Source of the DNA: an uncultured Nitrospiraceae bacterium | Lineage (GTDB): Bacteria > Nitrospirota > Nitrospiria > Nitrospirales > UBA2166 | Assembly: GCA_964463965.1 (NCBI GenBank) | Contig: CAYXED010000004.1 | Coordinates: forward strand, 124,758-188,757 | Direction: 5' to 3' | Length of the DNA stretch: 64,000 nt | In this document: piece by piece, positions 11,416 through 40,031 of the stretch | Layout of the letters: every line of letters begins with the position of its first letter | Position numbering within the stretch: the stretch's first letter is position 1 | Translations under genes and position numbers: made by a program | The notes under the pieces: generated by a model | Seen by the model: the letters and a program-made list of their open reading frames with translations, nothing else | Databases searched by the model: none | Told to the model about the DNA's origin: nothing

Positions 11416-11521
11416 GATTCCCCCATTTGGATTGCGGTACACTTTGAGTAATCCATTGCCCGCTATTAGTGGGATTGTATAGTGTATATTACAGCTTTAT
11501 CGGTAAAATTAAGTACATAAT

Positions 11522-12076: not shown

Positions 12077-12211
12077 GGCACCTGTTATGTAGTTAAGCTG
12101 ATTATACCGTCTGAATGCAGTCATAGTACTTGAAGGTGTGTATAATAGCCAAAGAGCTTTTTTGATATTTTTCTAAATCGTAAAAATTATTTTAGAACGA
12201 GGGTAAAAAGC

Positions 12212-24784: not shown

Positions 24785-24985
24785 TTATATCAATGGGTGT
24801 CCTAGTGCGGTAAGTTTTTCTGAGAGTTGTTCTCGTGAAAGTTTCTGCCCTTCAACCGTTACTTCCCCAGTCGCGATGTCCACTTCAACTTTGACCACTC
24901 CTGGATGTTTTAAGAGACCGTCCTCTATATTTGATGCACATCCATCGCATTTGACGTTCTGTACGGTAAATGATTCCAGTGGCAT
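24785..24985 (-). CDS. Heavy-metal-associated (CopZ-like) chaperone
   Basis: 66 aa, VKCDGCASNI CxxC motif, HMA-like pattern; RBS GGAGG. Confidence 0.85.
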   Translation of the reverse strand: MPLESFTVQNVKCDGCASNIEDGLLKHPGVVKVEVDIATGEVTVEGQKLSREQLSEKLTALGHPLI

Positions 24986-25198: not shown

Positions 25199-25272
25199 TG
25201 GGGGATCGTCTAATGGCAGGACGGCAGACTCTGACTCTGTCTATCAAGGTTCGAATCCTTGTCCCCCAGCCA
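25199..25272 (+). tRNA. tRNA-Gln (anticodon CTG)
   Basis: Acceptor TGGGGGA/TCCCCCA, anticodon arm GCAGA-CTCTGAC-TCTGT, T-loop GTTCGAATC, encoded CCA. Confidence 0.97.
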
Positions 25273-25292
25273 TAATCCACAGCTTATGCTCA

Positions 25293-25342
25293 GATTCTTG
25301 GTCAGTGGAGAATTGGAATGTTTTCTCCCACTGATCAGAATC
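25293..25342 (+). terminator. Long imperfect hairpin after the tRNA
   Basis: GATTCTTGGTCAGTGGAGAA / TTCTCCCACTGATCAGAATC; no clear U-tract. Confidence 0.45.
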
Positions 25343-25747
25343 GTGATAGGTATTGAATCTGTCACTTGACTGTGAATGTAATACAGAAGTGCTAAAAATT
25401 TTAATATAAGCTTAAAAAATAAATATTATTTATATCAATTGTTAAGTTGGGTGAGTGAGATTCCTCACATCGTTAGGCTGTATAGGAGGTCTAATATCCC
25501 TCGGGAACAGAGAAATTGCCTATCTATGGGTCTCGTGCTGACCTTGGCGGTTATCAAATCTGGGTATAATTTTTGTGGACAACATGTTTTGTAGCAAGGT
25601 GTTGCATGTGTGGGCATGCGTACGTTGAGTTCTGCGACGTATCTGGTACGATAGGTTTAGGCGTATATGGTATAAGTGGCTGGATTGACACTTTTTCTTG
25701 ACAAGGACCCTGATGTAGTGTACAGAAGGGAAGAATCCGACAAAATA

Positions 25748-25777
25748 TTGACGCATTAAGTCTCCCAATGATATAAT
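25748..25777 (+). promoter_or_regulatory. Strong sigma70 promoter for collagen-like lipoprotein 1
   Basis: TTGACG-N18-TATAAT with extended -10 TG (25769-25770). Confidence 0.65.
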
Positions 25778-25921
25778 CTATTACTTTAATTTTAACCCCT
25801 AATTGCATGTTTTGAATACGAAAGATTGGAGTTAAAGATTGAAAGATAGGCAATTTAAAATTACCATTGTAGCGGACCTCTGGTTTTTTAGAGGTTCTCT
25901 AAAGTTGAAGGAGGATTTATC

Positions 25922-27688
25922 GTGATAGCACAAAATAGCGTTATGTGCAGACTTTTACTCTCCGCTGCCGTATTGAGCTTTTTATTGGTGGCGGGTTGTA
26001 TTGAGGGTGAGCAAGGCCCAGCAGGCCCAGCAGGAGCCACAGGAGCCACAGGAGCTACTGGCGTTGGGCTTCCAGGCCCAGCAGGATCCCCTGGAACACC
26101 AGGAATTCAGGGCCCAGCAGGCGCTGCGGGCGCTGCGGGCAGCACAGGCGCTGCGGCACCGCTTGCAGCGGGTACAGCGGCAATCTCAGGAAAGCTTATG
26201 AAGGGGCCGATCTCAGGGGCAACGGTAACTGTAAAGGGTTCTGGAGCTGGTTGTACAACTCTCGCGAGTACTCAAAGTGGGGCCCCGCTCACATGTAATA
26301 TTGCTGTAGGAAACCTTGCGTCGACTGCGGTGAGTTTGGCAGATGGTACTTACACCGCTACCATCAATTCCTCGTACACTGGTCCTATCATTGTTGAGGC
26401 GGTTGGTGGAACATATGTTAACGAAGTTGATGGTACTACTGAGACTGGGCCGGGGGCCACAACCCCGTTGCGTGCAGTGGTTGCCACTGCTCCTACGGTG
26501 GGAACGACCGCTACAGTGAATCTTACACCGTTGACCACTATGGCGGCAGGCAGAATTTTCTCCCAGACCGGTGTCTTGGCTATTCCAGCTACCACTATCA
26601 CGTCTGCGACCACTCTGGTGCAGAGCATGTACGGTATTACTAATATTAATGCAGAACCGATTGACGTGAATGCAGCTCTTCCGGCTGGCTCAACTGTGCA
26701 GACGCAGCAGTATGGGCTTCTTACCGCAGCGTTTTCTCAACAGGCTGCCACGTTAGCGATTGCAAACCCGCTTGATTTCCTGAATGCCGTTGTGAATGAC
26801 TTTAATGACGGTGTCCTGGATGGAAAAGTTGCGGCGTCAACAGCCATTATCCCGCTAGGAGCGACGGCGGCTTTATTGTCCACTGCAGCAGCAAATGATC
26901 TCTCGACAGCTATGACCAATTTCACAGTGGCCAGTGCAGCGAGAAATCTTGCTGGCGTGGCCGTGGATACAACTGTAGCAGCCACAGTAAATGCTGCGGA
27001 TGAGACTTCGATAGCAAACAGTAAGTTGACCTTTACAACGGTTGCCAATGGAATCACCTTGACAGATGCCGTCAATAGTCGTGCACAGTTGATCAGCACT
27101 GTCACCGGTACGACAGCCAACGCAGCAGCGGTTGCTACTATGACGGCAGCTAGTGTCAAAGTCGTTGTTCCGTTTGCCGTTGTTGAGGGTTCGGTTGCGA
27201 CGACAGTTCCGTTTAGCGTGACGATTTGTCCGACTGCAGCGCTCAATTCTGTGACGTGTAGTACGACTGATAAGCGTAAAATGACGGTGACGTTGAGTAA
27301 ATTGACGCTTACCCCATCAGGTAATTCGGTGATTGCATCGATTCCAACTGATTCGACTGTAAACTACTCGGGAGCTACAGATACCAATGGAACGGCGGTG
27401 GCAGCGCTTGCGACAGCACTCGTTCCTACGACGATTTTCACGACGTCGACCACATTGCCAAATCAACTGACCTTTGATCCTAATGCGCTCAAAACGCAAT
27501 TGGCTGCAACGTCTGTGGCTGCGTTTGACGCCGTGGTCACAACCGGAAACTGGACCTACTCGGTTGCGCCGGGAGTAACGACGTATTATAGGACTCCAGG
27601 TGTGGCGCTAACTTGCACAGCAGCGGATGTTACTGCTGCAGCTTGTAAGCAGACTACGCTTATTCAAGGACCTGTAAACACGAGTTAA
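25922..27688 (+). CDS. Collagen-like surface lipoprotein 1 (Ala/Thr-rich)
   Basis: RBS GGAGG; lipobox LVAG|C; 16 Gly-X-Y triplets with one break; SGK..KGPI domain; no known family recognised for the remainder. Confidence 0.85.
   Translation: MIAQNSVMCRLLLSAAVLSFLLVAGCIEGEQGPAGPAGATGATGATGVGLPGPAGSPGTPGIQGPAGAAGAAGSTGAAAPLAAGTAAISGKLMKGPISGATVTVKGSGAGCTTLASTQSGAPLTCNIAVGNLASTAVSLADGTYTATINSSYTGPIIVEAVGGTYVNEVDGTTETGPGATTPLRAVVATAPTVGTTATVNLTPLTTMAAGRIFSQTGVLAIPATTITSATTLVQSMYGITNINAEPIDVNAALPAGSTVQTQQYGLLTAAFSQQAATLAIANPLDFLNAVVNDFNDGVLDGKVAASTAIIPLGATAALLSTAAANDLSTAMTNFTVASAARNLAGVAVDTTVAATVNAADETSIANSKLTFTTVANGITLTDAVNSRAQLISTVTGTTANAAAVATMTAASVKVVVPFAVVEGSVATTVPFSVTICPTAALNSVTCSTTDKRKMTVTLSKLTLTPSGNSVIASIPTDSTVNYSGATDTNGTAVAALATALVPTTIFTTSTTLPNQLTFDPNALKTQLAATSVAAFDAVVTTGNWTYSVAPGVTTYYRTPGVALTCTAADVTAAACKQTTLIQGPVNTS
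26006..26155 (+). repeat. Collagen Gly-X-Y coding repeat
   Basis: 9-bp period units such as GGCCCAGCA and GGAGCCACA. Confidence 0.9.
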
Positions 27689-27734
27689 TATAAGGTTCTA
27701 TTGACAGCCCGGGTATTGGGCGAGACTTATCAAT

Positions 27735-27775
27735 CGAGGGGCTCACTCTTTTATGGAGTGAGCCCCTCGTTGTTT
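27735..27775 (+). terminator. Intrinsic terminator
   Basis: Perfect 14-bp stem CGAGGGGCTCACTC/GAGTGAGCCCCTCG, loop TTTTATG, then TTGTTT. Confidence 0.85.
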
Positions 27776-27820
27776 ATCACCAGTTGACAGACAGAATAGA
27801 GTTGCGTATGAGAAGTCGTT

Positions 27821-29560
27821 ATGAGTACTAGATTGAAAATTATGTTAACTGGCCTGCTTGTGCTCCTGACCGTTACTCCTGGAGTGACATGGGCAGGAAA
27901 GATAAAAGTTGTGCCACTACAAAACCCCAACCCTCAGATAATCTCTTGGTTTGGTTGGTCAGTCCAATCTGTTGGTGACTTGAATGGTGACGCAGTCCCT
28001 GATTTGGCGGTGAGCGCACCTCAGCAGTCGGTGAGCGGCATTGCTCAGCAAGGGACGGTACGCATTTTTTCAGGAGCCGATAGAACCTTTCTTTTTACGT
28101 TAGATAGCCCCGTATCTGGGTTTGGCGCGATCTTTGGAGAAGCAATACGCGCAGTGGGTGATGTAAATGGTGATGGACGCCCTGATATTCTGGTCGGTGC
28201 ACGTCTTCAGAGTATTGATGGAAATGATGGGCAAGGTCAGGCGTATGTGTTTTCTGGTATGGATGGGAGCTGGTTAGGAGTGACATTAAAGGCCCCTATT
28301 CCTCAGGGAGGGGCATTTTTTGGAGCGGCATTAGCAACAATCAATGATCAAAATCAAGATGGAAAGCGGGATGTTATCGTTGGTGCTCCTCAGCAGTCAT
28401 TTGGGGACAATCAAAGTGAAGGTGCGGTGTTTGTGATGTCACCGGTAAATGGGCAATTGCTTTCGATTCTCTTGCATCCTAACCCTCAAACTAGGGCCTC
28501 ATTTGGCTTTGCCGTCGAATCACTTGGTGACGTTAATGGGGACGCGGTAACAGACTTTGCTGTTTCAGCCCCTTTCCAAATAGTGGAGGGACGTCCTTCT
28601 CAGGGACAGGTATACGTGTTCTCAGGTGCGAACAGGCAACGGTTGTACACGCTTAATACTCCAGAACCAATCCCAAGTGCGCGTTTTGGCTTTGCCGTCG
28701 CTGCAATGGGAGATGTGAATAACGATGGTATTGGCGATATTCTTGTTGGAGCCCCTACGGCCGATCTTCCATCCATTCGCAACGCTGGACGAGCGTTTAT
28801 CTCTTCGGGTGCAGATGGGACAGTTTTGCACGTCCTTAATGATCCATCTCCAGTAGAAAATGGGATGTTCGGGGCAGCACTTGCCTCGCCAGGTGATTTT
28901 GATGGGGATGGGGTTACAGATGTTGCGATTGGCGCTCCAGCGCCGGTAAGCAGTAGTCAGGGAGTATTTAGCACTGGGGAGGTGTTGCTGTTTAGCGGAG
29001 CCACGGGCAACCATTTGCTGACCGTGAATGATCCTTCGCCTGAATCGGGATCGACCTTTGGTTTTTCGATAGTAGGAGCGGGAGACGTTGATAAGGATGG
29101 AGTCTCCGACTTGTTAATTGGGGCGCCATTTCATGACGTTACTGTTGATGGCACGGTGGTAGAATCGGTAGGCAATGCCTTTGTTTTTAGGAAACTGTCA
29201 CCCGACCTCAAAGGGAAAATTATTGAAGTCGTGAATACGACAGATGTATCTGGGCAAGATCGTTTATTCTTCACGGTGGAAGTGAAAAATAAAGGGACAG
29301 TCAAAACGACTGTGCCATTTAGGATCAAAGCTCATATTTCAAATGACTCTGTTTACGATGGTGGAAAGATTGACCCAAAGCTCGAAAAATGGAAAATATC
29401 GCAACCATTGCTCCCCGGAGAAAAAGTGGTTCTTGATGGGGCGGTAGCATTTGATGAATCTGTAGCTGGAAAGTTTTTTATTTTGAGGGTAGATCCTAGT
29501 AAAAAAATCAAGGAAGGTAAGGAGAAGAACAACACAAAGAGTATCAGAATCGTCCGCTGA
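27821..29560 (+). CDS. Secreted FG-GAP (integrin-alpha-like) 7-blade propeller + CARDB-like domain
   Basis: Signal peptide; seven FG...D[NDK]xDG...GAP-type repeats with Ca-binding loops; C-terminal PDL...V.N.G...E..E.NN domain. Confidence 0.9.
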   Translation: MSTRLKIMLTGLLVLLTVTPGVTWAGKIKVVPLQNPNPQIISWFGWSVQSVGDLNGDAVPDLAVSAPQQSVSGIAQQGTVRIFSGADRTFLFTLDSPVSGFGAIFGEAIRAVGDVNGDGRPDILVGARLQSIDGNDGQGQAYVFSGMDGSWLGVTLKAPIPQGGAFFGAALATINDQNQDGKRDVIVGAPQQSFGDNQSEGAVFVMSPVNGQLLSILLHPNPQTRASFGFAVESLGDVNGDAVTDFAVSAPFQIVEGRPSQGQVYVFSGANRQRLYTLNTPEPIPSARFGFAVAAMGDVNNDGIGDILVGAPTADLPSIRNAGRAFISSGADGTVLHVLNDPSPVENGMFGAALASPGDFDGDGVTDVAIGAPAPVSSSQGVFSTGEVLLFSGATGNHLLTVNDPSPESGSTFGFSIVGAGDVDKDGVSDLLIGAPFHDVTVDGTVVESVGNAFVFRKLSPDLKGKIIEVVNTTDVSGQDRLFFTVEVKNKGTVKTTVPFRIKAHISNDSVYDGGKIDPKLEKWKISQPLLPGEKVVLDGAVAFDESVAGKFFILRVDPSKKIKEGKEKNNTKSIRIVR

Positions 29561-29585
29561 GTACCGAAGCGGTTATATTGGCCAC

Positions 29586-30662
29586 CTACCTGTCTTTGGT
29601 ATTGCCAATCACGCTACCGTGAGTTTGCTCGCCGCGGGATAATTTTTGTCTGACAGCCGCGCTTTTCAAATAGTATAGTATATTTTCTTGGTTCATGAGG
29701 ACGCGGAGTAATGTGTCGCCTAAAAATCCTGTGATGAGAGTTGATACACCGAGCAACGTAAATGACCCTCCGACAAAGCCTGCCCAAATGTGAGGGGAAA
29801 ATGCTTGTGTTTCGATGTAATGGATTCCGAGAAAACCAAGAAAGCCCAATCCTGTTGCGAGAAAGAGAAAGCTCACTGCAACAAAAAATCTTAGCGGGTG
29901 GTAAGCAATAAACGCACGAATCATGATTTGCAATGTTTGCACGGCGTATCTTGTAATGCTCGATGTCATTCTTGATGTACCGTGCTCACGGGTTCCTTTC
30001 ACGCGGACTGGCACTTCAATAATTGCTAATCGCTTTACGACGAGATCAAGAAAAGTTTCCTGCGTATAGGTAAAGCGGCCAAACAGGGTCATGCGGAGCA
30101 TCGCTTCTCGTGAGAATGCTCGAAAGCCACAGGAAACGTCATGAAAAGATTTGCCAGTTAACAGCCTAACTGTTAGTGCGAGCCCACGGTTTCCCCAATA
30201 TTTAATCAATGGCATTTTTGGCACAAGTTCCGGATTGATAAAACGTGACGCTGTGGCCATGTGAGCGCTGCTTTTCACAATAGGGGCCACAAGAGTGGGG
30301 ATGTCTGTTGGATCAAACTGACCATCTCCATCTATGTGGATCAGGACGTCGATTCCACGTATCAGCGCAACGCTAACTGCTTCACGAAATGTTATGCCGA
30401 GACCAAGGTTAGTGGTGTGGCTGATCACTTCAGCTCCAGCTGCACGTGCTCGATTGACGGTTTCATCAGATGACCCGTCATCAATGACAAGTACTTGTAT
30501 GCTGCTGATTCCTGGAATATTTTTTGGAATGTTTTTAATCACCCTACCAACAGTCTGTTCTTCGTTTAGGCAAGGAATGACGACGAGTGCTGATTTGTAG
30601 TATTGATCATGGAGTGATGGTGAAGCTATATTTTCCGTGAATTGTTCGGATTGGAGTGACAT
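29586..30662 (-). CDS. GT2 glycosyltransferase, polyprenol-phosphate-sugar synthase (DPM1/GtrB)-like
   Basis: IPCLNEE, IDDGSSD, IDGDGQFDP (DxD), ASRF, DVSCGFRAF; two C-terminal TM helices. Confidence 0.85.
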   Translation of the reverse strand: MSLQSEQFTENIASPSLHDQYYKSALVVIPCLNEEQTVGRVIKNIPKNIPGISSIQVLVIDDGSSDETVNRARAAGAEVISHTTNLGLGITFREAVSVALIRGIDVLIHIDGDGQFDPTDIPTLVAPIVKSSAHMATASRFINPELVPKMPLIKYWGNRGLALTVRLLTGKSFHDVSCGFRAFSREAMLRMTLFGRFTYTQETFLDLVVKRLAIIEVPVRVKGTREHGTSRMTSSITRYAVQTLQIMIRAFIAYHPLRFFVAVSFLFLATGLGFLGFLGIHYIETQAFSPHIWAGFVGGSFTLLGVSTLITGFLGDTLLRVLMNQENILYYLKSAAVRQKLSRGEQTHGSVIGNTKDR

Positions 30663-30923
30663 TTTACTGTTCGCGGTGTGGAGAGACCTAACGCCTTAAG
30701 TGATACTTGTTTTGAGTTAGTCTGGCTTGACCATTGTGAATACCAAGTATAGTGATCATACCTCACGTGTTGTCGTAATGACAGCATATTTTGCTAAACA
30801 GGAAACAGGAAGCAAGAAAAAGAGGGACGAGGTTTCTAAAAACTCATTACGGATGCTGTGGGAAGTTTCCCGTACATGTGAGGATGTTTTTGGTATGAGT
30901 TGTCAAAAAGGGTGTAGCTTCTG

Positions 30924-33080
30924 ATGAGTGTTTCTTTCCTCTATTGGGCTAGGCCGCTTTCATTGCTTGTGTTTGTGGGGGCAATATATTGGAGCTCACT
31001 TAACGGTCCTTTTGTTTTTGACGATTGGCATGTCATTGCTGAAAATCCATCGATTCGACAACTGAACAACATTCCGCTTTTCTTCGTTGATCAAACTCAT
31101 TTCTCGATATTAAGTGGCAATCAAGGATATCGCCCGATCTTTTTAACATCGATGGCCTTGTGTTGGTGGGCTGGTGGTGGTGCGCCCTTGCCTTTTCACC
31201 TACTTAGCATGGTGCTTCACGCCAGTAATGCATTTTTACTGATACTGATTTGTTGTGTGGCATTCACAAAATCCAGTGATCCTAAAGGAGGACTATCCAG
31301 CTCCTCTGTAGAGTGGGGAGCGTGGTTATCGGGGGCTCTATTTGCGCTCCATCCGCTCGCTACAGAGTCAATCAATTACGCCAGTTCTCAATCGGTACCT
31401 CTCGCAAGTGCATTTTTTCTCATAAGTCTCTACCTGTTTATGGCAGTCTATAGCGGGGCGGAATCCTTTTCTAGGAGGGCAAAATGGGTGTATCTTTGCG
31501 TATGCTACGTGTCCTATGGGCTTGCGCTACTTAGTAAGCCGATAGCTATTTCTCTTCCAGTAATCGTCTTACTTTGGGAGTTTTTGGGGCATTACGTACA
31601 TGAAAGTATCCAGAAGGCGTGGAAGCAATGGTGGAAAGCACATTGGAAGAGATTTGTCCCATATGTGGTTATTTCAATGGCATACTTATGGGTGCGGTCT
31701 GCCGTGGTGTTGGGGCCGTTTGGCGGCCCAGAGTTTATAAGGCCAATTTTTGATCACTACCTGACTCAGACCAAAGCACTAGTTTTTTACTACCTCAAGC
31801 TCTCACTCTTGCTAGGAAAGCAAAACGTCGATGTGGTGTATTCGATTTCGAACTCCCTATTTGATCTACAAGTTATCGCCGCACTTGTTTTTCTGTGCGG
31901 AATCATTTGGACTTTAGTTTTGTTTAGGCATCAACGTAATGTTGTTTTCTGGTCGCTGTGGTTTCCTGTCTGTCTTTTTCTCACTACTTATGGGGTAGTT
32001 CTTCGCCAAGTTGTAAATGAGCATCGGGTATATCTGTCTCTTGCCGGACTGTGTGCCTTGTTTGGATTTCTTGCCGTCAAGGGTTGGGAGCAATTGCAAT
32101 CTAGTGGTGTTGTATTTGGGCAGCGTAAAGTTTTGTCGTATGCAGCTTCTTTTGGAGTTGTGATTGGTCTTATGGGGATGGCTTACCATGCCAGTGCACG
32201 AAGCAATGTATGGGAATCACGATTAACGTTGTGGGGAGACGCAGCACGCAATGGGGGTACATGGCGAGCGCACATGAACTATGGGATTCAATTGCGAGGA
32301 ATGGGGCGCTTACAGGAGTCGGCAGAGTGGCTTGAAAGGGCTGTGGAAAATGGACCTTACGCTTTTGCACACATTAATTTGGGATTAACGTATTTTGAGT
32401 TGGGGGAAACCGATGAAGCTTTGGGACATTTGTATAGTGCAACTATGGGGTGGCCGATGGCTCCAGAGCCATGGTTTTATCTTGGGTACGTTCAGAATAA
32501 AATTGGGGATTATGTGCGAGCTGAATTGAACTACCTTCGCGCACTTAAGCTGAGGCCACGATATCTTACAGCGCTACGAGAATTGGCAGACTTTTATGCT
32601 GCACAAAAACTTCAGGAGGATGAAAGGATCGTGTTGCAGTACATTCTTGCGCTTGATTCGACTCAGTTATGGGCTAGGAGTCGTATCGGTGAGTTTGAAA
32701 ATTTTCAGTCATCTCTGGATTCTACGGCATCTGCCCGTCTATTTACGCAAGCGTTGTTGTTGCAGCATTTGGGTAGTTCAGATTTAGCAATCCAACGATA
32801 TGAGAGACTTTTGTTACATGAACCAGGTCATAGGCAGGGAACGTTTAATCTTGCCTATGCGTATATGTTGCAGGGTGGTTCTGGTTCCCTGATTAAAAGT
32901 GCTGGATTGTTTAAGAAAGTGCTAGAAATTGAACCGTTGTATGTGGAAGCGCTCCACCATCTGGCAACAGTATTATGGAAGGTAGGAGAAAAAGAAGAAG
33001 CAATAGTGTACGATATGAAGTACTTGGAAAAGGGCCAGCATGTTGACTTGAGGAAGCTTTCAAAAACTCGCCTTCAGTAG
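30924..33080 (+). CDS. TMTC-like GT-C membrane glycosyltransferase with C-terminal TPRs
   Basis: FVFDD, YRPI, FHLL..LHA.N, LFALHPLATE, EHRVYL, W.....LW, then TPR helices; multiple TM segments. Confidence 0.82.
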   Translation: MSVSFLYWARPLSLLVFVGAIYWSSLNGPFVFDDWHVIAENPSIRQLNNIPLFFVDQTHFSILSGNQGYRPIFLTSMALCWWAGGGAPLPFHLLSMVLHASNAFLLILICCVAFTKSSDPKGGLSSSSVEWGAWLSGALFALHPLATESINYASSQSVPLASAFFLISLYLFMAVYSGAESFSRRAKWVYLCVCYVSYGLALLSKPIAISLPVIVLLWEFLGHYVHESIQKAWKQWWKAHWKRFVPYVVISMAYLWVRSAVVLGPFGGPEFIRPIFDHYLTQTKALVFYYLKLSLLLGKQNVDVVYSISNSLFDLQVIAALVFLCGIIWTLVLFRHQRNVVFWSLWFPVCLFLTTYGVVLRQVVNEHRVYLSLAGLCALFGFLAVKGWEQLQSSGVVFGQRKVLSYAASFGVVIGLMGMAYHASARSNVWESRLTLWGDAARNGGTWRAHMNYGIQLRGMGRLQESAEWLERAVENGPYAFAHINLGLTYFELGETDEALGHLYSATMGWPMAPEPWFYLGYVQNKIGDYVRAELNYLRALKLRPRYLTALRELADFYAAQKLQEDERIVLQYILALDSTQLWARSRIGEFENFQSSLDSTASARLFTQALLLQHLGSSDLAIQRYERLLLHEPGHRQGTFNLAYAYMLQGGSGSLIKSAGLFKKVLEIEPLYVEALHHLATVLWKVGEKEEAIVYDMKYLEKGQHVDLRKLSKTRLQ

Positions 33081-33286
33081 CTGTAGGGGCGCGATTTGTT
33101 TTGTTGTTAACGTTAGGTACTTCAAGAGATTGTTGATTTTATGTGGTGCATTGCATATGAGGTTTGGAGTGGTTTTGTTTTTTGGGGAGACTAGTGGGGT
33201 TTTGTCAGAATCTTTGAGAAGCTAAAATGCGATCTTGTGGGAGGTTGGGGAAAAAATGGAACATGAAAGAAAAACCAAAATTTTCC

Positions 33287-33315
33287 TTGACATGGGGCGT
33301 ATCGATATAGATAAT
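33287..33315 (+). promoter_or_regulatory. Strong sigma70 promoter for collagen-like lipoprotein 2
   Basis: TTGACA-N17-GATAAT; second TTGACA-N17-CAAAAT at 33373-33401. Confidence 0.6.
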
Positions 33316-33548
33316 GCGCTAGCCGTCGAGGCGGGTGGCGTGCGCGATTTGCATCCACGGGCAATTTTTTTCTTGACAGTGGATGATGCTTAACTCAAAA
33401 TGCGTTCGTCATTTCCTTCGGGCGGCTTGTGCTATGGAAATGAGTGGCCTTAGAAAATGAACGGGGGGGAAATGGGAAAGGAACATGAGGTTCAACCATG
33501 TTGTTAGGTAACAGAGAATGGAATCATCAAATAAGGAGGATTGAACCA

Positions 33549-35633
33549 ATGGGGAGAATGAGAGCGACGGGGAAAACCGGACGAGCATCTTCAGGCTTCT
33601 TGCTTGTGCTGGGTGCTGTGGCGCTTGGTTTGGTGCTGGTAGGATGTTCTGGTGAAGATGGGTTGGTTGGTCCTGCAGGGCCGGCCGGACCTCCAGGACC
33701 AGCTGGAGCAGTAGGACCGGCGGGTGCTGATGGTGCCGCAGGGGCAGCAGGACCAGCGGGTGCACGTGGTGCAGCAGGACCAGCAGGACCAGCAGGACCA
33801 TCGGGTCCAGCAGGTGCTGATGGATCCGCAGGATCCGCAGGAGCTGCAGGAGCTGCAGGAGCTGCAGGATCTGGCACTGTTGTTCCGGGTGCTGCGTTAG
33901 CATCAGGAAAGGCCATTAAAGGGCCTATCGTTAATGGAACTGTTGTTCTGTCTATTTATGCGGACAACAATGGGGGAACCTGCCCAACTGTCGCCCCAAC
34001 GACAGTAGTGGGTACTTCAGGTGCCCTTGAGCGTTGCACTATTGGTGCTTCTGGAACGACGGACGCAAATGGTGGTTTCGCGCTGACCATTCCAGATGAC
34101 CAGTCTTCGTTGGTTGGTCCGCTTCACGTGGAAGTCTTTAACGGGACATTCATCGACGAAGTGACCGGTTTGACCAACACTGGGCCGCAGGGACCTGGAA
34201 TTAACTCGAAGCTGCGTACTCTCGTTCCGCTTGAGTACTTGGATGATCTGAGACCAGCCGGTGGTGCTGCGAACGTTGTCACTGTGGCTATTAGCGCCTT
34301 GACTGAGTTGGCCGCGACAAGAGCTCTTGGGGCTGGTACTGGAACCCCAACCGCTGGTCAGGCGCATGCTGCCAATACTCAAACAGCATCGCTCTTTTCT
34401 TTGGACGATATTGATATTGCCAGAACGCTTCCTTCGGATATCACGAATCCTGCTTCATCTTCTGATTCCGATGAATCAAAGCGTTATGGTATTGTCAATG
34501 CCGCTTTCTCTCAGCTAGCTCAGGTCGTCGAGGGTGACCAAGACGTCCTGGATATCGTGAGAGTTGTTGGTCTTGACTATCAAGATGGTATTTTTGATGC
34601 TAAGGGACGTCTTACGAGTCCTTCTGATGCTGCTCTGACGTTACCGGGTGCTTCCAGGAAGATTCCGGCGGCTACCATGGGGCCAACATTGGCAGCAGCT
34701 ATTGAAACCATTCAGTCGAGTTCGGTAAACAATACCGGCACCACGCTTGATGCAGCGGCTGTAGCGACCGTTCGTGGCGCACATCTCGCTTCAAATAACA
34801 TTCTGACTTTGACCGATAACGGCTGTATCGTGGCAGATGCACGGTTGCCTTCTGGTTCGTTTATCTTTACGCGTGCTATCTCTACGGGTATTGCGACACT
34901 GCGTAACGCATTTGGTGGTAATGGTTCGGTGGATGGCTCTGGTTTTCGCGCCGTTGGTACCGACAATAACGCAAATACCTTTTTCTCTGCGCAGTCTGTG
35001 AATATTCGTTGTGTCTTGGCAAACTTCTCACAGGGTGCCACCGCGCTTGGTGATCGTGGTTCTGGACAGATTACCGTCAGTCCTCGGTTTACCATTCGTG
35101 ATGCGACAGCTGACGATGCCACCAATAGTCTCGCGGCTGCAGCGCACGGAACCGGTTCTAAGAGAACTGTCACCGGTACTTTGTCTGCTATGACAATCAA
35201 CAACAACCCAACGGGTGTAACTGGGTCTCAGCCTGAGGGTACGACTATCACAATTACCGGTATGCGTGATGTCAATGGCAGCACCATCAGAATTGACACG
35301 CCACTTCCGCCATCATCGATCCTGAACCAGGGCGGAAATGTTGTTCGGTTTGTTCCGAATGCGTTGATTGGTGCTCTAAGTGCCAAGGGATTATCGCAAT
35401 TTGATACTCTGGCGAAGGACGGTATTTTTGTCTATGAAGTGACACCGGGCTTCCCAGTATACTTGCATGCCAATGCTGGCAGCACGACTGAGAGCAATGC
35501 ACCACCGGCGGCCCGTCCACAGACCTGTAATGGTAATCCGGATGGAACGACGACTACGAGTGGTACTGGTTTCAGTGGTACATCGTGTGTCAGTGTTACA
35601 ACAGTCAGAGGATCTTTGGAGGTCAAGCAGTAA
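33549..35633 (+). CDS. Collagen-like surface lipoprotein 2 (paralog of 25922-27688)
   Basis: RBS AAGGAGGA 8 nt before ATG 33549; lipobox LVG|C; 25 uninterrupted Gly-X-Y triplets; SGKAIKGPI domain. Confidence 0.85.
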   Translation: MGRMRATGKTGRASSGFLLVLGAVALGLVLVGCSGEDGLVGPAGPAGPPGPAGAVGPAGADGAAGAAGPAGARGAAGPAGPAGPSGPAGADGSAGSAGAAGAAGAAGSGTVVPGAALASGKAIKGPIVNGTVVLSIYADNNGGTCPTVAPTTVVGTSGALERCTIGASGTTDANGGFALTIPDDQSSLVGPLHVEVFNGTFIDEVTGLTNTGPQGPGINSKLRTLVPLEYLDDLRPAGGAANVVTVAISALTELAATRALGAGTGTPTAGQAHAANTQTASLFSLDDIDIARTLPSDITNPASSSDSDESKRYGIVNAAFSQLAQVVEGDQDVLDIVRVVGLDYQDGIFDAKGRLTSPSDAALTLPGASRKIPAATMGPTLAAAIETIQSSSVNNTGTTLDAAAVATVRGAHLASNNILTLTDNGCIVADARLPSGSFIFTRAISTGIATLRNAFGGNGSVDGSGFRAVGTDNNANTFFSAQSVNIRCVLANFSQGATALGDRGSGQITVSPRFTIRDATADDATNSLAAAAHGTGSKRTVTGTLSAMTINNNPTGVTGSQPEGTTITITGMRDVNGSTIRIDTPLPPSSILNQGGNVVRFVPNALIGALSAKGLSQFDTLAKDGIFVYEVTPGFPVYLHANAGSTTESNAPPAARPQTCNGNPDGTTTTSGTGFSGTSCVSVTTVRGSLEVKQ
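33651..33875 (+). repeat. Collagen Gly-X-Y coding repeat
   Basis: 25 triplets, including (GCAGGAGCT)x3 at 33837-33863. Confidence 0.9.
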
Positions 35634-35691
35634 GCCAAAGATCTGCTAAGCTGATCGGCGTTTCTTTAGGTCGGTTAGTTTAAGAACATCG

Positions 35692-35730
35692 ATGGGCCTA
35701 CCGTGTTATGCGGTAGGCCCATTTGTTTTT
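35692..35730 (+). terminator. Intrinsic terminator
   Basis: Perfect 12-bp stem ATGGGCCTACCG/CGGTAGGCCCAT, loop TGTTATG, then TTGTTTTT. Confidence 0.88.
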
Positions 35731-36218: not shown

Positions 36219-39200
36219 ATGCGAAGTAGATGGATTGTGGGTAGATCGCTGTGTATGTGGGCAATTGGAGTGGCCCTTTTGTTGGGCTCGGTGAGTACTG
36301 TCGTAGGGCAGACCTTTACAGCAACTGGGAGTTTGTCATCTTCACGTACTTTCCACACTTCGACTCTTCTGACTGATGGTCGAGTACTTATTGTTGGTGG
36401 TGGAAGTACTGCTACAGCGGAATTATATGATCCAACTATTGCAGGGTTTCTCCAGGCAGGAACTTTGGCAACAGCACGGACGCTTCATAGTGCAACCTTG
36501 TTAATCAATGGTAAGGTGCTTGTTGCGGGTGGTGGAACATCTGGAGCCGCCACAGCTGAACTCTACGATCCCTTAACGGCATCGTTTTCGGTAACGGGTT
36601 CAATGCTTTCTGACCGAAGCAATCATACTGCTACGTTGTTACCAAGTGGTGACGTGTTAATTCTTGGTGGTATGAGTGCAGATGGCCGCGCGCTTGCCAC
36701 AGCGGAGCTTTATGATCCAGATACGGAAACTTTTGTCTCGAGTGGCGTGATGTCTACTGCCCGTATGTTCCATGCGGCGTCGCTACTTTCAGATGGGAGG
36801 GTATTGATTGCTGGAGGTTTTGATAACTCGGGCAGCACCGTTGGCACTGCAGAGGTTTTTGATCCTGTAACACGAACGTTTTCAAGTACAGGAAGCATGA
36901 CGGCAGCACGTAGTAATCACACTGCCACGTTGTTATCAAGTGGACAGGTGGTAGTTGCCGGAGGTTTAGGCACGGGAAGTATTACTTTGAATACGAGTGA
37001 AGTCTATGATCCGACAACAGGATCGTTTACTGCGACAGGAACAATGAGTAGTACTCGAAGTCACCATACAGCAACACGTTTAGCAAATGGGCAAGTGTTG
37101 CTTGTTGGAAGTCTGGAAGGAACAGCTAGCGCAGAAATTTTTGATCCAACGACGTCAACTTTTTCTCCTACTGTTAGTTTAGTCTCTGCACGGTCATTTC
37201 AAGGGGCTACTCTGTTGTTGAGTGGACAGGTGTTAATTACAGGAGGTGGGCAGTCGGGGACGACCGCTGAGCTTTTTGATGCACCTAATGTGTTTGAGCC
37301 TTCAGTTGTTAGCGTGCTTGGTCCGCTTGAAGGAGGATTTACCTCAACAATCAGCAACATGGGTGCAGCACGGCAGAGCCACACAGCCACTCTCTTATCA
37401 AGTGGGGGGGTACTTGTCTCAGGAGGCTTGGGTGGCGGAGGCAGTACTGCGGAGGTGTATGATTCACCTACAGAGAGTTTTGTGCCGGTCGGAAGTATGA
37501 CTACGTCTCGCACAGAACATACGTCAACTGAGTTGCGAGATGGGCGTGTTCTGATTGTTGGCGGTGCAGTTGGTGATGACACACCAGCCGAATTATTTGA
37601 TACTTCGACAGACACCTTTACAGGCACTGGTCTGATGGTCACCGAACGGCGACGGCACACTGCCTCGGCGTTATCAGATGGCCGGGTGTTAATAGCCGGC
37701 GGACGTAGTCAAGATGGCGTGGTGCTTGCATCGTCTGAAATCTATGATCCATCTACGGAATCGTTCGGTGAGGGCGATAGTATGGATGCGGCTAGAAGTT
37801 TGCATACTGCCACGACGCTATCTGATGGGACCATTCTTGTTGTCGGGGGAAATGACTCCGATGGTTTTCCAGTACGAAGTGCTGAAATTTTTGACCCTGT
37901 GACTGGGATATTCTCTTCGACGGGTAGTCTAGGCACTGCGCGTGCTCGCCATACCGCTACATTATTGGAAACCGGTGAGGTTCTTGTGACGGGTGGGGTT
38001 GGTGCTTCAGTAAGTGCAGAGGTCTTCAATCCAAGTACAGGGCAGTTCACTCAGGTTGGCAGTTTGGTAGAGGCAAGAGAAAATCATACTGCAACACGTC
38101 TTTCGAGTGGGCATGTTCTTTTAATCGGTGGAAACTTAAGTCTAGATGCTGAGTTCTACAATCCGTCTACAGCACAGTTTGAGGCGGTTGTGAATATGAT
38201 GACTGATTCTCGTCAAATGCACACGGCAACGTTACTACAAACCGGACGAGTGCTCGTCGCAGGAGGTATTGGAATTCTTGAGACTGCAGAGCTTTTCGCT
38301 CGTAATACGCCTGACGTTAATCTGATAATTACAAAGCTACGCGTTAAACCAAAACAGTCTGGGAACAAGCTAAAGGTTATATTACAAGCTCAAAACTCTG
38401 GTACGGAAGTTGCGGTTGGACCACTGGTAGCTTCCTTGTTCTTGTCGGTAGATGAAATTGTAGATGAGCAGGATGCTCTCCTTCAGACGATTTCTGTCGA
38501 TAGTATTGAGGGTGGGAATCAGGCGAAGCTCAAGTTTAAAGTAAAAGGCCTTGGGAGTATTGGTGGAATGTATGCAGTCGTCAAACTTACTGCTGCTGCT
38601 GGAGAGGAGAATCTTCAGAATAATACAGTCTCAGGGCTTATTGAGGAGTTGCCTCAGTCTGTCATTGTTACTCGTTCTGGAGACGGCTTTGGCACGGTTA
38701 CCAGCAGTCCTGATGGAGTAGCATGTGGAGAAATTTGTATTGCAAGCTTTGCTCCGAACGAAAATTTAGTTTTAACAGCAACAGCTGACCAAGGCTCAAC
38801 CTTTGGAGGATGGGGTGGAGACGAGTGCGACATTTCGTTGATCGCAGAAGACTTCAAGTCTGGAACATGTGAGTTTCTTCCATTGCTCAAGGAGCGGTCA
38901 GTAAATGGGCTCTTTACACTTGACTTCTCGCCAGCCGTAACGCTTGGATTGACCGTGATTGGTTCTGGTAATATTTCGAGTATACCTGGAAACTTGTTAT
39001 GCGGAACGACGGATCAGCCGGTGTGTAATGGTACCTTTGACCAGGGCAGTGTCGTGGTTCTTACGGCAACGCCAGATCCAGGAAATGAATTCATTTCTTG
39101 GAGTGGTGGTGGGTGTGGAGGCGCCGGACTTTGCTCTGTGACTATGGGTCAGAGTCATTCCGTGGTTGCTGAGTTTGCGGTGAGTACAGCCACGACGACA

Positions 39201-40031
39201 CCGACTACAACCACGACGACACCGACCACAACCACGACGACACCGACCACAACCACTGCGTCATTGACCATCACAACAAGTGGTACTGGCACTGGATCGA
39301 TTGTGAGTGTACCTACAGGGATTTCATGTGGTCTGGATTGTACAGAAACGTACACTATTGGAACTAATGTTTCACTAACCGCTACTGCAGCTGCTGGATC
39401 AACTTTCACTGGATGGACGGGTGGAGGCTGTGTCGGAACCGGATTGTGTGTTGTTTCGATGTCAGCGTTGACAACCGTCACAGCCCAATTTACAAGCAGT
39501 GTAGGTACAACCACTAACCTGACGGTGACTGAAATACGGGAAACCGCAGGTGCAGGAACTATCACAGGGACTGGTATCAACTGTGGAAATGGTGGAGTGT
39601 TGACGGACTGTACGCAGACATTCGATACCAACACCAGCGTGGTTCTGACTGCGACTGTAGGTGCGGACACTACCTTTGTCGGATGGGTAGGCGGTGGATG
39701 TTCGGGGACCTCAACGTGTACGGTGACAATGGATCAGAATCAGGAAGTTCGAGCGGTCTTTGAAAAAAATGAGGTCGATGCAACGTCAAGTCTTCTCAAT
39801 AAGACTTTGGGCGTTGGAATGTCAGGTTTAGGCGCTGGGACCGTAACGGGACTCGATATTAATTGTGGTTCTGACTGCGCACAAAAATACCCAGCAGGCT
39901 CAGTAGTTGTTCTGACAGCAACTCCAGGAGCAGGATCCACGTTTGGTGGCTGGAGTGGGCAGTGTAGCGGCCTAGATCAGTGTGTTGTCATCATGGACGC
40001 TTCTGCAATTGTCAACGCAGTATTTAATTAG
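36219..40031 (+). CDS. Large secreted Kelch (14 repeats) + CARDB-like + InlB B-repeat (x5) protein with Thr-rich linker
   Basis: Signal peptide; 14 R..H[TS]ATLL..G.VL..GG-type repeats; five LTAT...F.GW.G.C repeats; RBS AGGAGG. Confidence 0.9.
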   Translation: MRSRWIVGRSLCMWAIGVALLLGSVSTVVGQTFTATGSLSSSRTFHTSTLLTDGRVLIVGGGSTATAELYDPTIAGFLQAGTLATARTLHSATLLINGKVLVAGGGTSGAATAELYDPLTASFSVTGSMLSDRSNHTATLLPSGDVLILGGMSADGRALATAELYDPDTETFVSSGVMSTARMFHAASLLSDGRVLIAGGFDNSGSTVGTAEVFDPVTRTFSSTGSMTAARSNHTATLLSSGQVVVAGGLGTGSITLNTSEVYDPTTGSFTATGTMSSTRSHHTATRLANGQVLLVGSLEGTASAEIFDPTTSTFSPTVSLVSARSFQGATLLLSGQVLITGGGQSGTTAELFDAPNVFEPSVVSVLGPLEGGFTSTISNMGAARQSHTATLLSSGGVLVSGGLGGGGSTAEVYDSPTESFVPVGSMTTSRTEHTSTELRDGRVLIVGGAVGDDTPAELFDTSTDTFTGTGLMVTERRRHTASALSDGRVLIAGGRSQDGVVLASSEIYDPSTESFGEGDSMDAARSLHTATTLSDGTILVVGGNDSDGFPVRSAEIFDPVTGIFSSTGSLGTARARHTATLLETGEVLVTGGVGASVSAEVFNPSTGQFTQVGSLVEARENHTATRLSSGHVLLIGGNLSLDAEFYNPSTAQFEAVVNMMTDSRQMHTATLLQTGRVLVAGGIGILETAELFARNTPDVNLIITKLRVKPKQSGNKLKVILQAQNSGTEVAVGPLVASLFLSVDEIVDEQDALLQTISVDSIEGGNQAKLKFKVKGLGSIGGMYAVVKLTAAAGEENLQNNTVSGLIEELPQSVIVTRSGDGFGTVTSSPDGVACGEICIASFAPNENLVLTATADQGSTFGGWGGDECDISLIAEDFKSGTCEFLPLLKERSVNGLFTLDFSPAVTLGLTVIGSGNISSIPGNLLCGTTDQPVCNGTFDQGSVVVLTATPDPGNEFISWSGGGCGGAGLCSVTMGQSHSVVAEFAVSTATTTPTTTTTTPTTTTTTPTTTTASLTITTSGTGTGSIVSVPTGISCGLDCTETYTIGTNVSLTATAAAGSTFTGWTGGGCVGTGLCVVSMSALTTVTAQFTSSVGTTTNLTVTEIRETAGAGTITGTGINCGNGGVLTDCTQTFDTNTSVVLTATVGADTTFVGWVGGGCSGTSTCTVTMDQNQEVRAVFEKNEVDATSSLLNKTLGVGMSGLGAGTVTGLDINCGSDCAQKYPAGSVVVLTATPGAGSTFGGWSGQCSGLDQCVVIMDASAIVNAVFN
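39190..39256 (+). repeat. 21-bp tandem repeat (3+ copies) encoding a TTTPTTT linker
   Basis: CCACGACGACACCGAC(T/C)ACAA x3 + CCAC. Confidence 0.92.

What the first reader, a model, noticed from the sequence alone, without database searches (positions are those of the whole stretch)
25922..35633. Two full-length paralogous collagen-stalk lipoproteins of an unrecognised family
Seen: both have a lipobox Cys immediately followed by Gly-X-Y repeats (16 with one break; 25 unbroken). They then share ordered motifs: SGK..KGPI...TV, a Cys pair, GP..VE...GT...EV.G.T.TGP, LT..AA, YG...AAFSQ, D..DG..D.K, TLS..T, D.NG, F.PNAL, and a terminal Cys pair. There is no CxxCH. Established: collagen repeats trimerise, and bacterial ones act as stalks. 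Inference: membrane-anchored trimeric stalks presenting a novel Ala/Thr-rich head; the divergence suggests alternative coat variants or a heterotrimer.
Basis: partly seen in the sequence, partly recalled or inferred. Interest (0 to 1): 0.7.

Follow-up and report, generated by a model that had tools for sequence, protein, structure and literature searches.

The report
Two collagen-stalked lipoproteins, uncharacterised head
An uncultured marine Nitrospirales bacterium encodes two old paralogous lipoproteins in which the lipid-anchor cysteine runs almost directly into a collagen-type stalk of fixed length, topped by a three-domain head with no known relative of solved structure or assigned function. 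They are inherited together with an integrin-like propeller protein and a Kelch protein, which suggests a lineage-specific envelope module.

Summary
Genes A (25922-27688) and B (ORF 33498-35633, likely start 33549) both encode a signal peptide and lipobox Cys.

The head has three parts: a beta-sandwich, a helical bundle and a C-terminal beta domain. Pfam, NCBIfam, PDB sequence searches and Foldseek found no significant match to any enzyme, transporter or other named family; only the sandwich gave weak transthyretin-like hits.

The sandwich-plus-helix module is not unique. It defines a large unannotated lipoprotein superfamily (585 representative clusters). One branch is Met-rich and sits in copper-efflux loci. 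The window's proteins are Met-poor.

The full architecture is confined to the family UBA2166, in 1 of 32 genera of the order. A-type and B-type orthologues are conserved separately, so alternative variants or a heterotrimer are unlikely.

A and B always lie next to an FG-GAP/CARDB gene with the same phyletic pattern. The GT2/TPR pair between them is a non-conserved insertion.

Best reading: homotrimeric stalks of about 14 and 21 nm displaying binding heads. Location and abundance are untested.

The parts
25748..25777 (+). Promoter-like site of gene A (TTGACG-18-TATAAT with extended TG, 11/12)
   Evidence: consensus match only
25922..27688 (+). Gene A, collagen-stalk lipoprotein, 588 aa (GTG start; an alternative ATG at residue 8 gives 581 aa)
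25922..25999 (+). A: type II signal peptide and lipobox LVAG-Cys26
   Evidence: Lsp and LolA are present in the genome
26006..26155 (+). A: collagen region of 7 + 9 Gly-X-Y triplets with one G1G break (GAT-GV-GLP). A break recurs at this place in A orthologues. Rod of about 14 nm
26156..26521 (+). A head domain 1: transthyretin/CarboxypepD_reg-like beta-sandwich with a clade-specific Cys33-Cys47 loop
26522..27028 (+). A head domain 2: helical bundle (motifs TPLTxMAA, YGxxxAxFSQ, DxxDGxxDG, NxxG)
27029..27685 (+). A head domain 3: lineage-specific C-terminal beta domain with a terminal Cys pair; AF2 pLDDT 89.9, no PDB neighbour
27735..27769 (+). Intrinsic-terminator-like hairpin after A (15-bp stem)
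27821..29560 (+). Secreted protein with 7 FG-GAP repeats (beta-propeller) and a CARDB domain. It has the same phyletic pattern as A/B and is always adjacent
29586..30662 (-). GT2 glycosyltransferase. Part of an insertion absent from the same interval in relatives; atypical codon usage (4.6th percentile)
30924..33080 (+). Polytopic membrane protein with C-terminal TPR repeats. Not found (E <= 1e-10) in two genomes of the genus that keep the collagen family, so not an obligate partner
33287..33401 (+). Two promoter-like sites upstream of B (33287-33315, 11/12; 33373-33401, 10/12)
33498..35633 (+). Gene B, collagen-stalk lipoprotein. ORF of 711 aa; probable start ATG 33549 gives 694 aa
33549..33647 (+). 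B: type II signal peptide and lipobox LVLVG-Cys
33651..33875 (+). B: 25 uninterrupted Gly-X-Y triplets (10 with Pro, 4 charged). Rod of about 21 nm
33876..35630 (+). B head: same three-part layout as A, with B-specific insertions and three Cys pairs
35691..35723 (+). Intrinsic-terminator-like hairpin after B (15-bp stem)
36219..40031 (+). Secreted 1270-aa protein with Kelch repeats and InlB B-repeats. A counterpart follows B in the relatives' loci

Best explanation
A and B are N-terminally lipidated proteins. In each, three chains probably wind their Gly-X-Y segments into a collagen triple helix that starts one or two residues after the acylated Cys. The result would be a rigid rod standing on the membrane on three lipid anchors: about 14 nm with one conserved hinge in A, and about 21 nm unbroken in B. 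Each rod would carry three copies of a disulfide-stabilised, non-catalytic head made of a beta-sandwich, a helical bundle and a lineage-specific beta domain. The two proteins are ancient paralogues with separate roles. Each most likely forms homotrimers that hold binding heads at two fixed heights. Together with the co-inherited secreted FG-GAP/CARDB propeller protein and the neighbouring Kelch/InlB-repeat protein, they form an envelope module specific to the marine family UBA2166. The module most likely sits on the cell surface and serves as a coat, an adhesin or a docking layer. Shown: the architecture, paralogy, conservation, synteny, and the lack of any known catalytic family. Inferred: trimerisation, stalk rigidity, homotrimer composition, surface location, and binding to the partner proteins.
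For: Lipobox and strict Gly periodicity are kept in every full-length orthologue, while X/Y residues and the number of triplets vary: 18-21 triplets in other A-type genes (16 in the window's A) and 22-27 in B-type. A 97%-identical strain differs by exactly one triplet, which fits selection on a triple helix rather than on a loose linker. Pfam Collagen scores above its cut-off. The genome has Lsp and LolA. Three Cys pairs per head indicate an oxidising compartment. All three head domains are evenly conserved among orthologues, at about 50% in A and 41-69% in B. The A head has no His, and the invariant residues are mostly Gly/Pro/Thr/Ala with a few acidic ones. No enzyme or transporter match was found. 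The AF2 models are confident: pLDDT 78.6 for the whole head and 89.9 for the C domain. The order A - FG-GAP/CARDB - B is kept in the relatives' loci, with a Kelch-type protein next to B. FG-GAP/CARDB occurs in exactly the same 4 of 201 Nitrospirales genomes as A/B. In the window, both neighbours start with a hydrophobic signal-peptide-like stretch and contain adhesin-type repeats. Each gene has its own strong promoter-like site and hairpin terminator. About 69% of superfamily relatives are lipoproteins, and some fuse the module to RCC1, InlB-B or Asp-rich repeats typical of surface proteins.
Against: Codon adaptation is average (44th and 52nd percentile), which does not fit a dominant coat protein, although codon bias in this genome is weak. 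The A stalk is poor in Pro and charge (6 of 16 triplets with Pro, 1 charged), so its helix may be only marginally stable. No trimerisation domain is recognisable, and no multimer model could be run. Sorting to the outer leaflet cannot be read from the sequence, and the Slam search was uninformative because its controls failed. The link to FG-GAP and Kelch rests on synteny and phyletic pattern only.
Confidence: 0.5

Rival explanations
1. The proteins are periplasmic spacers or tethers. The lipid anchor sits in the inner leaflet of the outer membrane, or in the inner membrane, and the collagen rods act as rulers of 14 and 21 nm. They would position the heads, or the FG-GAP partner, at set depths in the periplasm, which is reported to be wide in Nitrospira (own knowledge). 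This resembles the way trimeric Lpp sets envelope spacing.
For: An N-terminal lipid on a trimeric rod is the Lpp layout (established knowledge). LolA-based trafficking normally delivers lipoproteins to the periplasmic face of the outer membrane. No surface-export factor was detected (uninformative). Relatives of the N-module sit in loci of periplasm-spanning RND copper pumps. Two discrete, conserved stalk lengths look like rulers.
Against: A trimer of 500-580-aa heads (about 150-180 kDa) on a rigid rod would be hard to fit across or beside peptidoglycan. No peptidoglycan-binding domain is present, and there is no conserved C-terminal Lys as in Lpp. Ordinary OmpA/Pal-type tethers are already present. 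The co-inherited partners have adhesin-type repeats.
Confidence: 0.2
2. The proteins handle metals. Like the Met-rich two-module relatives in copper-efflux loci, the heads would bind or chaperone a metal ion in the envelope.
For: The N-module is homologous to Met-rich lipoproteins that lie beside a multicopper oxidase, OMF-MFP-RND pumps and P-type ATPases. A CopZ-like HMA gene lies upstream of A here and in a divergent relative.
Against: A and B have 1.2% and 0.8% Met. A has no His, and all Cys residues are in conserved pairs that fit disulfides. No efflux or oxidase genes lie in the conserved module. The HMA gene travels with the prepilin peptidase and is absent upstream of A in L001.
Confidence: 0.07
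3. A and B co-assemble into heterotrimers, or are mutually exclusive alternative coat variants.
For: They are homologous along the whole head and lie 6 kb apart. Copy number varies, with a tandem B duplication in one relative.
Against: Stalks of 16 and 25 triplets, with a break only in A, cannot form one regular helix. Orthologues of each type persist side by side across the genus. The upstream regions show no similarity beyond chance. The search for a shared operator stopped there, and inverted repeats were not specifically scanned.
Confidence: 0.05
4. The genes are relics of a phage tail-fibre or another mobile element with collagen repeats, and have no cellular role.
For: Collagen repeats are common in phage fibres (own knowledge). 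A tRNA-Gln gene lies upstream. The G+C content of the region is raised. IS elements occur in this interval in a relative.
Against: GC3 is within the range of neighbouring genes, and the rise comes from second codon positions, that is, from Ala/Thr/Gly/Pro content. Lipoboxes are conserved. The locus is syntenic in relatives and flanked by housekeeping genes. The viral fold library gave no meaningful match. The frames are intact, with about 50% identity among orthologues in all domains.
Confidence: 0.03

Closest known systems
Streptococcal collagen-like proteins Scl1/Scl2 (NCBIfam NF038330/NF038329)
   Same: Bacterial Gly-X-Y triple-helix stalk without hydroxyproline, carrying a globular non-collagen domain away from the cell. 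The collagen segments give the only NCBIfam hits.
   Different: Scl proteins are anchored C-terminally by LPXTG to Gram-positive peptidoglycan, with an N-terminal variable head. Here the anchor is an N-terminal lipid and the head is C-terminal. Scores are 21-47 bits against cut-offs of 325-400. The heads are unrelated.
BclA of the Bacillus exosporium, and C1q/collectin-type 'stalk plus C-terminal head' proteins
   Same: The order is basal attachment, then collagen stalk, then C-terminal globular head. A's GAT/GST triplets resemble the Thr-rich triplets of BclA.
   Different: BclA and C1q heads are compact TNF-like jelly-rolls of about 135 aa that nucleate the trimer. Here the head is 500-580 aa in three domains, and neither it nor its C domain matched such folds. 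Attachment is by lipid, not by an exosporium-targeting peptide.
Bucl8 and Bucl3 of Burkholderia (collagen-like proteins predicted to be lipoproteins; PMC4565658, PMC7682875)
   Same: Collagen repeats combined with a predicted N-terminal lipid-binding Cys in a diderm bacterium.
   Different: In Bucl8 the collagen segment is an extracellular extension of an OprM-like outer-membrane channel and is not fused directly to the lipid-binding Cys. No OEP domain is present here.
Braun's lipoprotein Lpp
   Same: A trimeric rod whose three N-terminal acylated Cys residues sit together in the membrane, with a length that can set spacing.
   Different: Lpp is a 58-aa alpha-helical coiled coil with a C-terminal Lys cross-linked to peptidoglycan. 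Here the rod is collagen-type, two to three times longer, carries a large head, and has no conserved terminal Lys.
Unannotated lipoprotein superfamily with the same sandwich-plus-helix module, including Met-rich two-module proteins in copper-efflux loci (e.g. L037:7905-9611; WP_460055280.1 of Spirochaeta dissipatitropha)
   Same: True homologues of head domains 1-2, with E down to about 1e-50 for hits that cover only this module. They share the motifs KGP(I/V), GGxYxDEATG, TP(L/I)TxMAA, YGxxLAxxSQ, DxxDGxxDG and NxSG, and most are lipoproteins.
   Different: They have a short Gly/Ser linker in place of the collagen stalk, and lack both the C-terminal beta domain and the Cys33-Cys47 loop. Many are Met-rich and linked to a multicopper oxidase, RND pumps or P-type ATPases, which the window's proteins are not.
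SlaB, the trimeric membrane-anchored stalk of the Sulfolobus S-layer (PDB 8qox)
   Same: A membrane-anchored trimeric stalk with beta-sandwich domains that holds a canopy protein at a fixed distance. It was a weak Foldseek hit (E 0.02).
   Different: It is archaeal, with a C-terminal transmembrane helix and a coiled-coil stalk. The structural match covers only about 127 columns at TM 0.12-0.14, so this is an analogy and not homology.

Membership tests
Bacterial collagen-like proteins (Pfam PF01391 Collagen) | Long uninterrupted Gly-X-Y repeats scoring above the Pfam gathering threshold | tested here: met
   30.7 and 41.8 bits against a cut-off of 27.2; 16 and 25 triplets counted directly
Bacterial collagen-like proteins (Pfam PF01391 Collagen) | Formation of a trimeric triple helix | not testable with these tools
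   Only monomer prediction is offered. The conserved Gly register across orthologues is indirect support
Bacterial lipoproteins (Lgt/Lsp pathway) | Signal peptide ending in a lipobox [LVI][ASTVI][GAS]C | tested here: met
   LVAG|C in A and LVLVG|C in B. The same is found in all full-length orthologues. Lsp is present in the genome
Bacterial lipoproteins (Lgt/Lsp pathway) | Actual acylation and final membrane or leaflet | not testable with these tools
   The +2 residues are I or S here and S/E/K/D in orthologues. Sorting rules for Nitrospirota are unknown
Scl1/Scl2 and Lcl adhesins (NF038330, NF038329, NF046116) | Whole-protein score above the curated cut-off; C-terminal LPXTG anchor (Scl) | tested here: not met
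   21-47 bits against cut-offs of 325-500, covering the collagen segment only. No LPXTG in either sequence
BclA/C1q-type collagen proteins | C-terminal TNF/C1q-like jelly-roll head | tested here: not met
   Foldseek of the whole head and of the C domain (pLDDT 89.9) returned no such fold. The best C-domain hit had E 0.31 and TM below 0.3
CarboxypepD_reg-like / transthyretin-like beta-sandwich (PF13620) | Pfam score above the gathering threshold on head domain 1 | tested here: inconclusive
   A and B gave no hit at E <= 1. Two relatives scored 19-23 bits against a cut-off of 32.3. The model gives weak hits to transthyretin, CBM20 and dioxygenase sandwiches (E 0.03-0.5)
Sandwich-plus-helix lipoprotein superfamily (unnamed; defined here) | Significant profile match over about 270 residues with the shared motifs | tested here: met
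   585 representatives at E <= 1e-3 and 212 at E <= 1e-10, most covering profile positions about 5-300. Alignment A4
Met-rich copper-locus branch of that superfamily | Met-rich composition (6% or more) and a neighbourhood of multicopper oxidase, RND pump or P-type ATPase | tested here: not met
   Met is 1.2% and 0.8%. No such neighbours lie in the conserved module
Lpp-type envelope tether | Alpha-helical coiled coil with a C-terminal Lys for linkage to peptidoglycan | tested here: not met
   The rod is collagen-type. The C-termini are ...NTS and ...VKQ, and those of orthologues vary

The most novel reading that the evidence does not exclude
The family UBA2166 has built a matrix-like envelope layer from parts that look eukaryotic. 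Triply lipid-anchored collagen rods of two set lengths would act as pedestals, and their new-fold heads would dock the co-inherited integrin-alpha-like (FG-GAP) propeller and Kelch proteins. That would be a two-tier, collagen-based surface scaffold with no described bacterial counterpart. In addition, the head's proximal module would define a large, still unnamed family of envelope lipoproteins whose Met-rich members are undescribed periplasmic copper-binding components of RND/CopA resistance loci.
Probability: 0.2. Interest if true: 0.75.

Novelty: new variant of a known kind. Interest (0 to 1): 0.5.

Why it matters
Bacterial collagen-like proteins are known mostly from Gram-positive pathogens and spores. 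Those are anchored through peptidoglycan or exosporium signals and need a separate trimerisation domain.

A design in which the lipid-bearing Cys runs almost directly into the triple helix would be a minimal, self-registering pedestal. Its length is written directly in the number of triplets, which is interesting for envelope architecture and as a protein-engineering chassis.

It is one of the few concrete leads on the cell surface of UBA2166. This is a marine, non-nitrifying and uncultured basal family of Nitrospirales with hundreds of family-specific genes of unknown role (PMC12342949).

The work also exposes an unannotated lipoprotein domain present in hundreds of protein clusters across at least seven taxonomic groups. 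One branch is tightly linked to copper resistance and can be tested in cultured Anaeromyxobacter, Alcanivorax or Burkholderiales.

Tried and rejected
- **Known families.** Pfam and NCBIfam scans of A, B and ten relatives gave only collagen, plus sub-threshold CarboxypepD_reg on two relatives.
- **PDB by sequence.** Profile searches with the family profile and with a 32-member N-module profile gave nothing real.
- **Fold searches.** Foldseek against PDB with the whole head and with the C domain, and against BFVD with the whole head, gave no hit with a meaningful TM-score. The hits to lipoxygenase, SlaB, transthyretin and an Aureococcus virus protein were treated as noise or as generic sandwich similarity.
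- **O-glycosylation link.** A link to the GT2/TPR pair was rejected as an obligate feature. The pair is missing from the same interval in relatives, the TPR protein was not found in two genomes that keep the collagen family, and the GT2 gene has atypical codon usage.
- **Recent horizontal transfer.** Rejected: GC3 is native-like.
- **Codon adaptation as a proxy for abundance.** Mid-range and therefore uninformative.
- **Shared upstream operator between A, B, FG-GAP and Kelch.** Not above shuffled controls.
- **Rfam scan of the locus.** Only the tRNA.
- **Short 376-aa collagen lipoprotein of a relative.** Homology of its head to the family was not supported (BLASTP E 0.006, hhalign probability 1%).
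- **Context of stand-alone module proteins.** No conserved neighbourhood.
- **Slam (PF04575) search.** Uninformative, because the controls did not respond.
- **Literature.** Searches found no description of this family.

Full report
**1. Observation**

The two ORFs are real.

Gene A (25922-27688, + strand) starts at a GTG that lies 7 nt after a GGAGGA site. It encodes MIAQNSVMCRLLLSAAVLSFLLVAG|C, followed two residues later by Gly-X-Y triplets. There are seven triplets, then a G-V-G step (a one-residue-short, G1G-type break), then nine more.

Gene B is an ORF from 33498 to 35633. The AAGGAGG site and the orthologues' N-termini point to ATG 33549 as the start. After LVLVG|C-S come 25 uninterrupted triplets.

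- Pfam Collagen is above its threshold for both proteins.
- The non-collagen parts align over 545 residues at 30% identity, E 7e-29.
- There is no CxxCH.
- Each head has three Cys pairs rather than two.
- These are the only collagen-repeat ORFs in the 1.89-Mb genome.

**2. Organism and distribution**

Relatives carry the titles 'Nitrospiraceae bacterium NP85' and 'UBA2166'. UBA2166 is a basal, marine, non-nitrite-oxidising, uncultured family of Nitrospirales with 544 family-specific genes (PMC12342949).

In 5.8 billion proteins, the B head finds 12 clusters and the A head finds 8, all unnamed or 'hypothetical'. Across 201 Nitrospirales genomes, the family occurs in 4 genomes of one genus out of 32.

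A-type and B-type orthologues form separate groups. Identity is 47-51% (A) and 50-59% (B) within a type among the closer orthologues, and about 30% between types. Both types occur together in the same genomes. The duplication is therefore old and both copies are maintained.

All full-length members keep the lipobox and the Gly register. The number of triplets varies: 18-21 in other A-type genes (16 in the window's A), with an interruption at a similar position, and 22-27 in B-type, unbroken. A 97%-identical strain variant of B has exactly one extra triplet. This pattern is what selection on a triple helix predicts and is not expected for a loose linker.

**3. Anatomy of the head**

AlphaFold2 with the 23-sequence family alignment gives mean pLDDT 78.6 and pTM 0.63. 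The model shows three parts:
- a beta-sandwich (head residues 1-120);
- a helical bundle (125-290);
- a beta-rich C-terminal domain (292-510).

Modelled alone, the C domain reaches pLDDT 89.9 and pTM 0.87.

Foldseek against PDB finds nothing at E <= 1e-3 for either model. Only the sandwich gives weak matches, to transthyretin, CBM20 and the protocatechuate-dioxygenase sandwich. The C domain's best hit has E 0.31 with TM below 0.3. The viral structure library adds nothing convincing. Profile searches of PDB sequences are empty.

The A head has no His. The residues invariant between A and B are mostly Gly, Pro, Thr and Ala, plus a few acidic residues. All three domains are about equally conserved among orthologues.

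I read this as a structural or binding head and not an enzyme.

**4. The head is only partly new**

A profile search of 1.84 billion representative proteins returns 585 hits at E <= 1e-3 and 212 at E <= 1e-10. Nearly all cover only profile positions about 5-300, which is the sandwich plus helices.

Typical members are 270-310-aa lipoproteins with a short Gly/Ser linker in place of collagen. Of 143 inspected, 98 have a lipobox and only five more have collagen stalks. The module also occurs fused to RCC1 repeats, InlB B-repeats, Asp-rich repeats and a beta-propeller tail.

No Pfam or NCBIfam model covers it. One member is 'hypothetical protein' WP_460055280.1. A scan of GTDB species genomes confirms 164 loci in Burkholderiales, Anaeromyxobacter, Geobacter, Syntrophus, Desulfospira, soil Nitrospirota, Planctomycetota, Alcanivorax and Leptospirales.

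A prominent branch consists of lipoproteins of about 570-650 aa with two tandem modules and very high Met content. They lie beside DUF6502, a multicopper oxidase, OMF-MFP-RND pumps and P-type ATPases. This looks like an undescribed copper-handling family.

The window's proteins are Met-poor (1.2% and 0.8%) and have no such neighbours. I therefore keep metal handling only as a minor rival.

The C-terminal domain and the Cys33-Cys47 loop are restricted to the collagen-stalked clade.

**5. Surroundings**

Each gene has its own near-consensus promoter-like site and a 15-bp-stem terminator. No Rfam element other than tRNA-Gln lies in the locus.

In the relatives' loci the order is A, then a secreted FG-GAP(x7)/CARDB protein, then B, with a Kelch/InlB-repeat protein next to B. 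The FG-GAP/CARDB gene has exactly the phyletic pattern of A/B: the same 4 of 201 genomes.

The interval between FG-GAP and B is variable.
- In the window it holds a GT2 gene and a TPR-tailed membrane protein.
- In one relative it holds IS1595, a methyltransferase, an extra collagen lipoprotein and a tandem copy of B.
- In others it holds only a short ORF.

The TPR protein was not found (E <= 1e-10) in two genomes that keep the collagen family. The GT2 gene has the most atypical codon usage of the cluster, at the 4.6th percentile. The proposed glycosylation system is thus a local insertion and not a conserved partner. It could still modify the Thr-rich proteins in this strain.

The raised G+C of A and B comes from second codon positions, that is, from amino-acid composition. 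GC3 is within the range of neighbouring genes, so recent transfer is not indicated.

**6. Mechanism**

Shown:
- lipoprotein signals, with Lsp and LolA in the genome;
- a collagen register that begins one or two residues after the lipid-bearing Cys;
- disulfide-type Cys pairs;
- two conserved stalk classes;
- a conserved, non-catalytic-looking head;
- co-inheritance with secreted repeat proteins.

Inferred from the established 0.286 nm rise per residue of collagen helices:
- A gives a rod of about 14 nm with a hinge at the G1G break.
- B gives a straight rod of about 21 nm.
- Each rod is held by three lipid anchors and displays three heads.

Because lengths and breaks differ between A and B, homotrimers are much more likely than mixed trimers.

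I favour an outward-facing pedestal layer that binds or docks something, possibly the FG-GAP and Kelch proteins, which have no detected anchoring domain of their own. The reasons are the size of the trimeric head, the adhesin-type partners and the fusion partners of the module elsewhere.

A periplasmic ruler or tether is the main rival. It fits default Lol sorting and the periplasmic setting of the copper-locus relatives. It is weakened by head size, by the absence of any peptidoglycan-binding feature, and by the presence of ordinary OmpA-type tethers.

Abundance is unknown. The promoter and terminator sites look strong, but codon adaptation is average, and reads could not be consulted.

**7. 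Comparison and verdict**

The closest known kinds are bacterial collagen-like surface proteins: Scl1/2, BclA, Lcl and Bucl. The shared principle is a hydroxyproline-free triple-helix stalk that presents a globular domain. The differences are the anchor (N-terminal lipid almost directly abutting the helix), the polarity, and an unrelated three-domain head. The curated Scl and Lcl models are far below cut-off, and no C1q-like head is present.

Lpp and SlaB are functional analogies only.

I class this as a new variant of a known kind: a real, conserved, lineage-restricted architecture with an uncharacterised head. It is of moderate interest as it stands. Interest would be higher if the surface-scaffold reading or the copper-branch lead is borne out.

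Noticed in passing
L037:7905-9611, L030:7890-9599, L044:7875-9668, L053:7662-9611, L024:7896-9599: Lipoproteins of 570-650 aa with two tandem copies of the sandwich-plus-helix module and very high Met content (runs such as MGGMGGGMMGGGTMM). They lie next to DUF6502, a multicopper oxidase (L030:9596-11251), an OMF (L037:10183-11529), HlyD/CusB-type MFP, AcrB-type RND and P-type ATPase genes in Burkholderiales and soil Nitrospirota. This looks like an undescribed copper-binding envelope protein family with no Pfam or NCBIfam model.
   Followed up: partly
window 29586-33080: The GT2 gene and the TPR-tailed membrane protein sit in an interval that holds other material in relatives. The GT2 gene has the lowest codon adaptation of the cluster (4.6th percentile). 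The TPR protein was found in the window's genome and G008, with weak matches in G016, and not in G004 or G012.
   Followed up: partly
window 24785-24985 (-): A 66-aa CopZ-like heavy-metal-associated protein (CDGC motif; Pfam HMA E 1e-13), too short for the first ORF list. It lies between the prepilin peptidase and tRNA-Gln, and is found at the same place in a divergent relative (L097:3065-3265).
   Followed up: partly
window 25199-25921: tRNA-Gln(CTG) at 25199-25272 is followed by about 650 bp without any convincing ORF or Rfam match before gene A. The stretch holds A's promoter-like site and a 5' leader of about 145 nt.
   Followed up: partly
L004:3856-4986 (-), 6213-8546, 10001-12331: A relative carries a third, short (376-aa) lipobox-plus-collagen protein whose head is not demonstrably related to A or B (hhalign probability 1%). 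It also has two nearly identical tandem copies of B that differ mainly in one insert of the distal domain, next to IS1595 and a DNA methyltransferase. The lipid-plus-collagen stalk may be a reusable chassis in this lineage.
   Followed up: partly
L011:1-3282 (-), L012:1-3357 (-): In a divergent genome of the same genus, the sandwich-plus-helix module sits inside proteins of more than 1000 aa. One has two module copies separated by Asp-rich DxDxDG-type repeats, and another is followed by a long C-terminal region that looks like a beta-propeller.
   Followed up: partly
G000 C4:11-217 (-) and C2:37-243 (+): The two halves of a LolA gene lie at the ends of contigs C4 and C2, so these contigs are probably adjacent in the genome.
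   Followed up: no
L096:1-3935: Another collagen-stalk family member (P0028) lies on a contig that also carries a Rieske/molybdopterin oxidoreductase pair, a MauG-type di-haem peroxidase and IS1595. It may belong to a related marine lineage.
   Followed up: no
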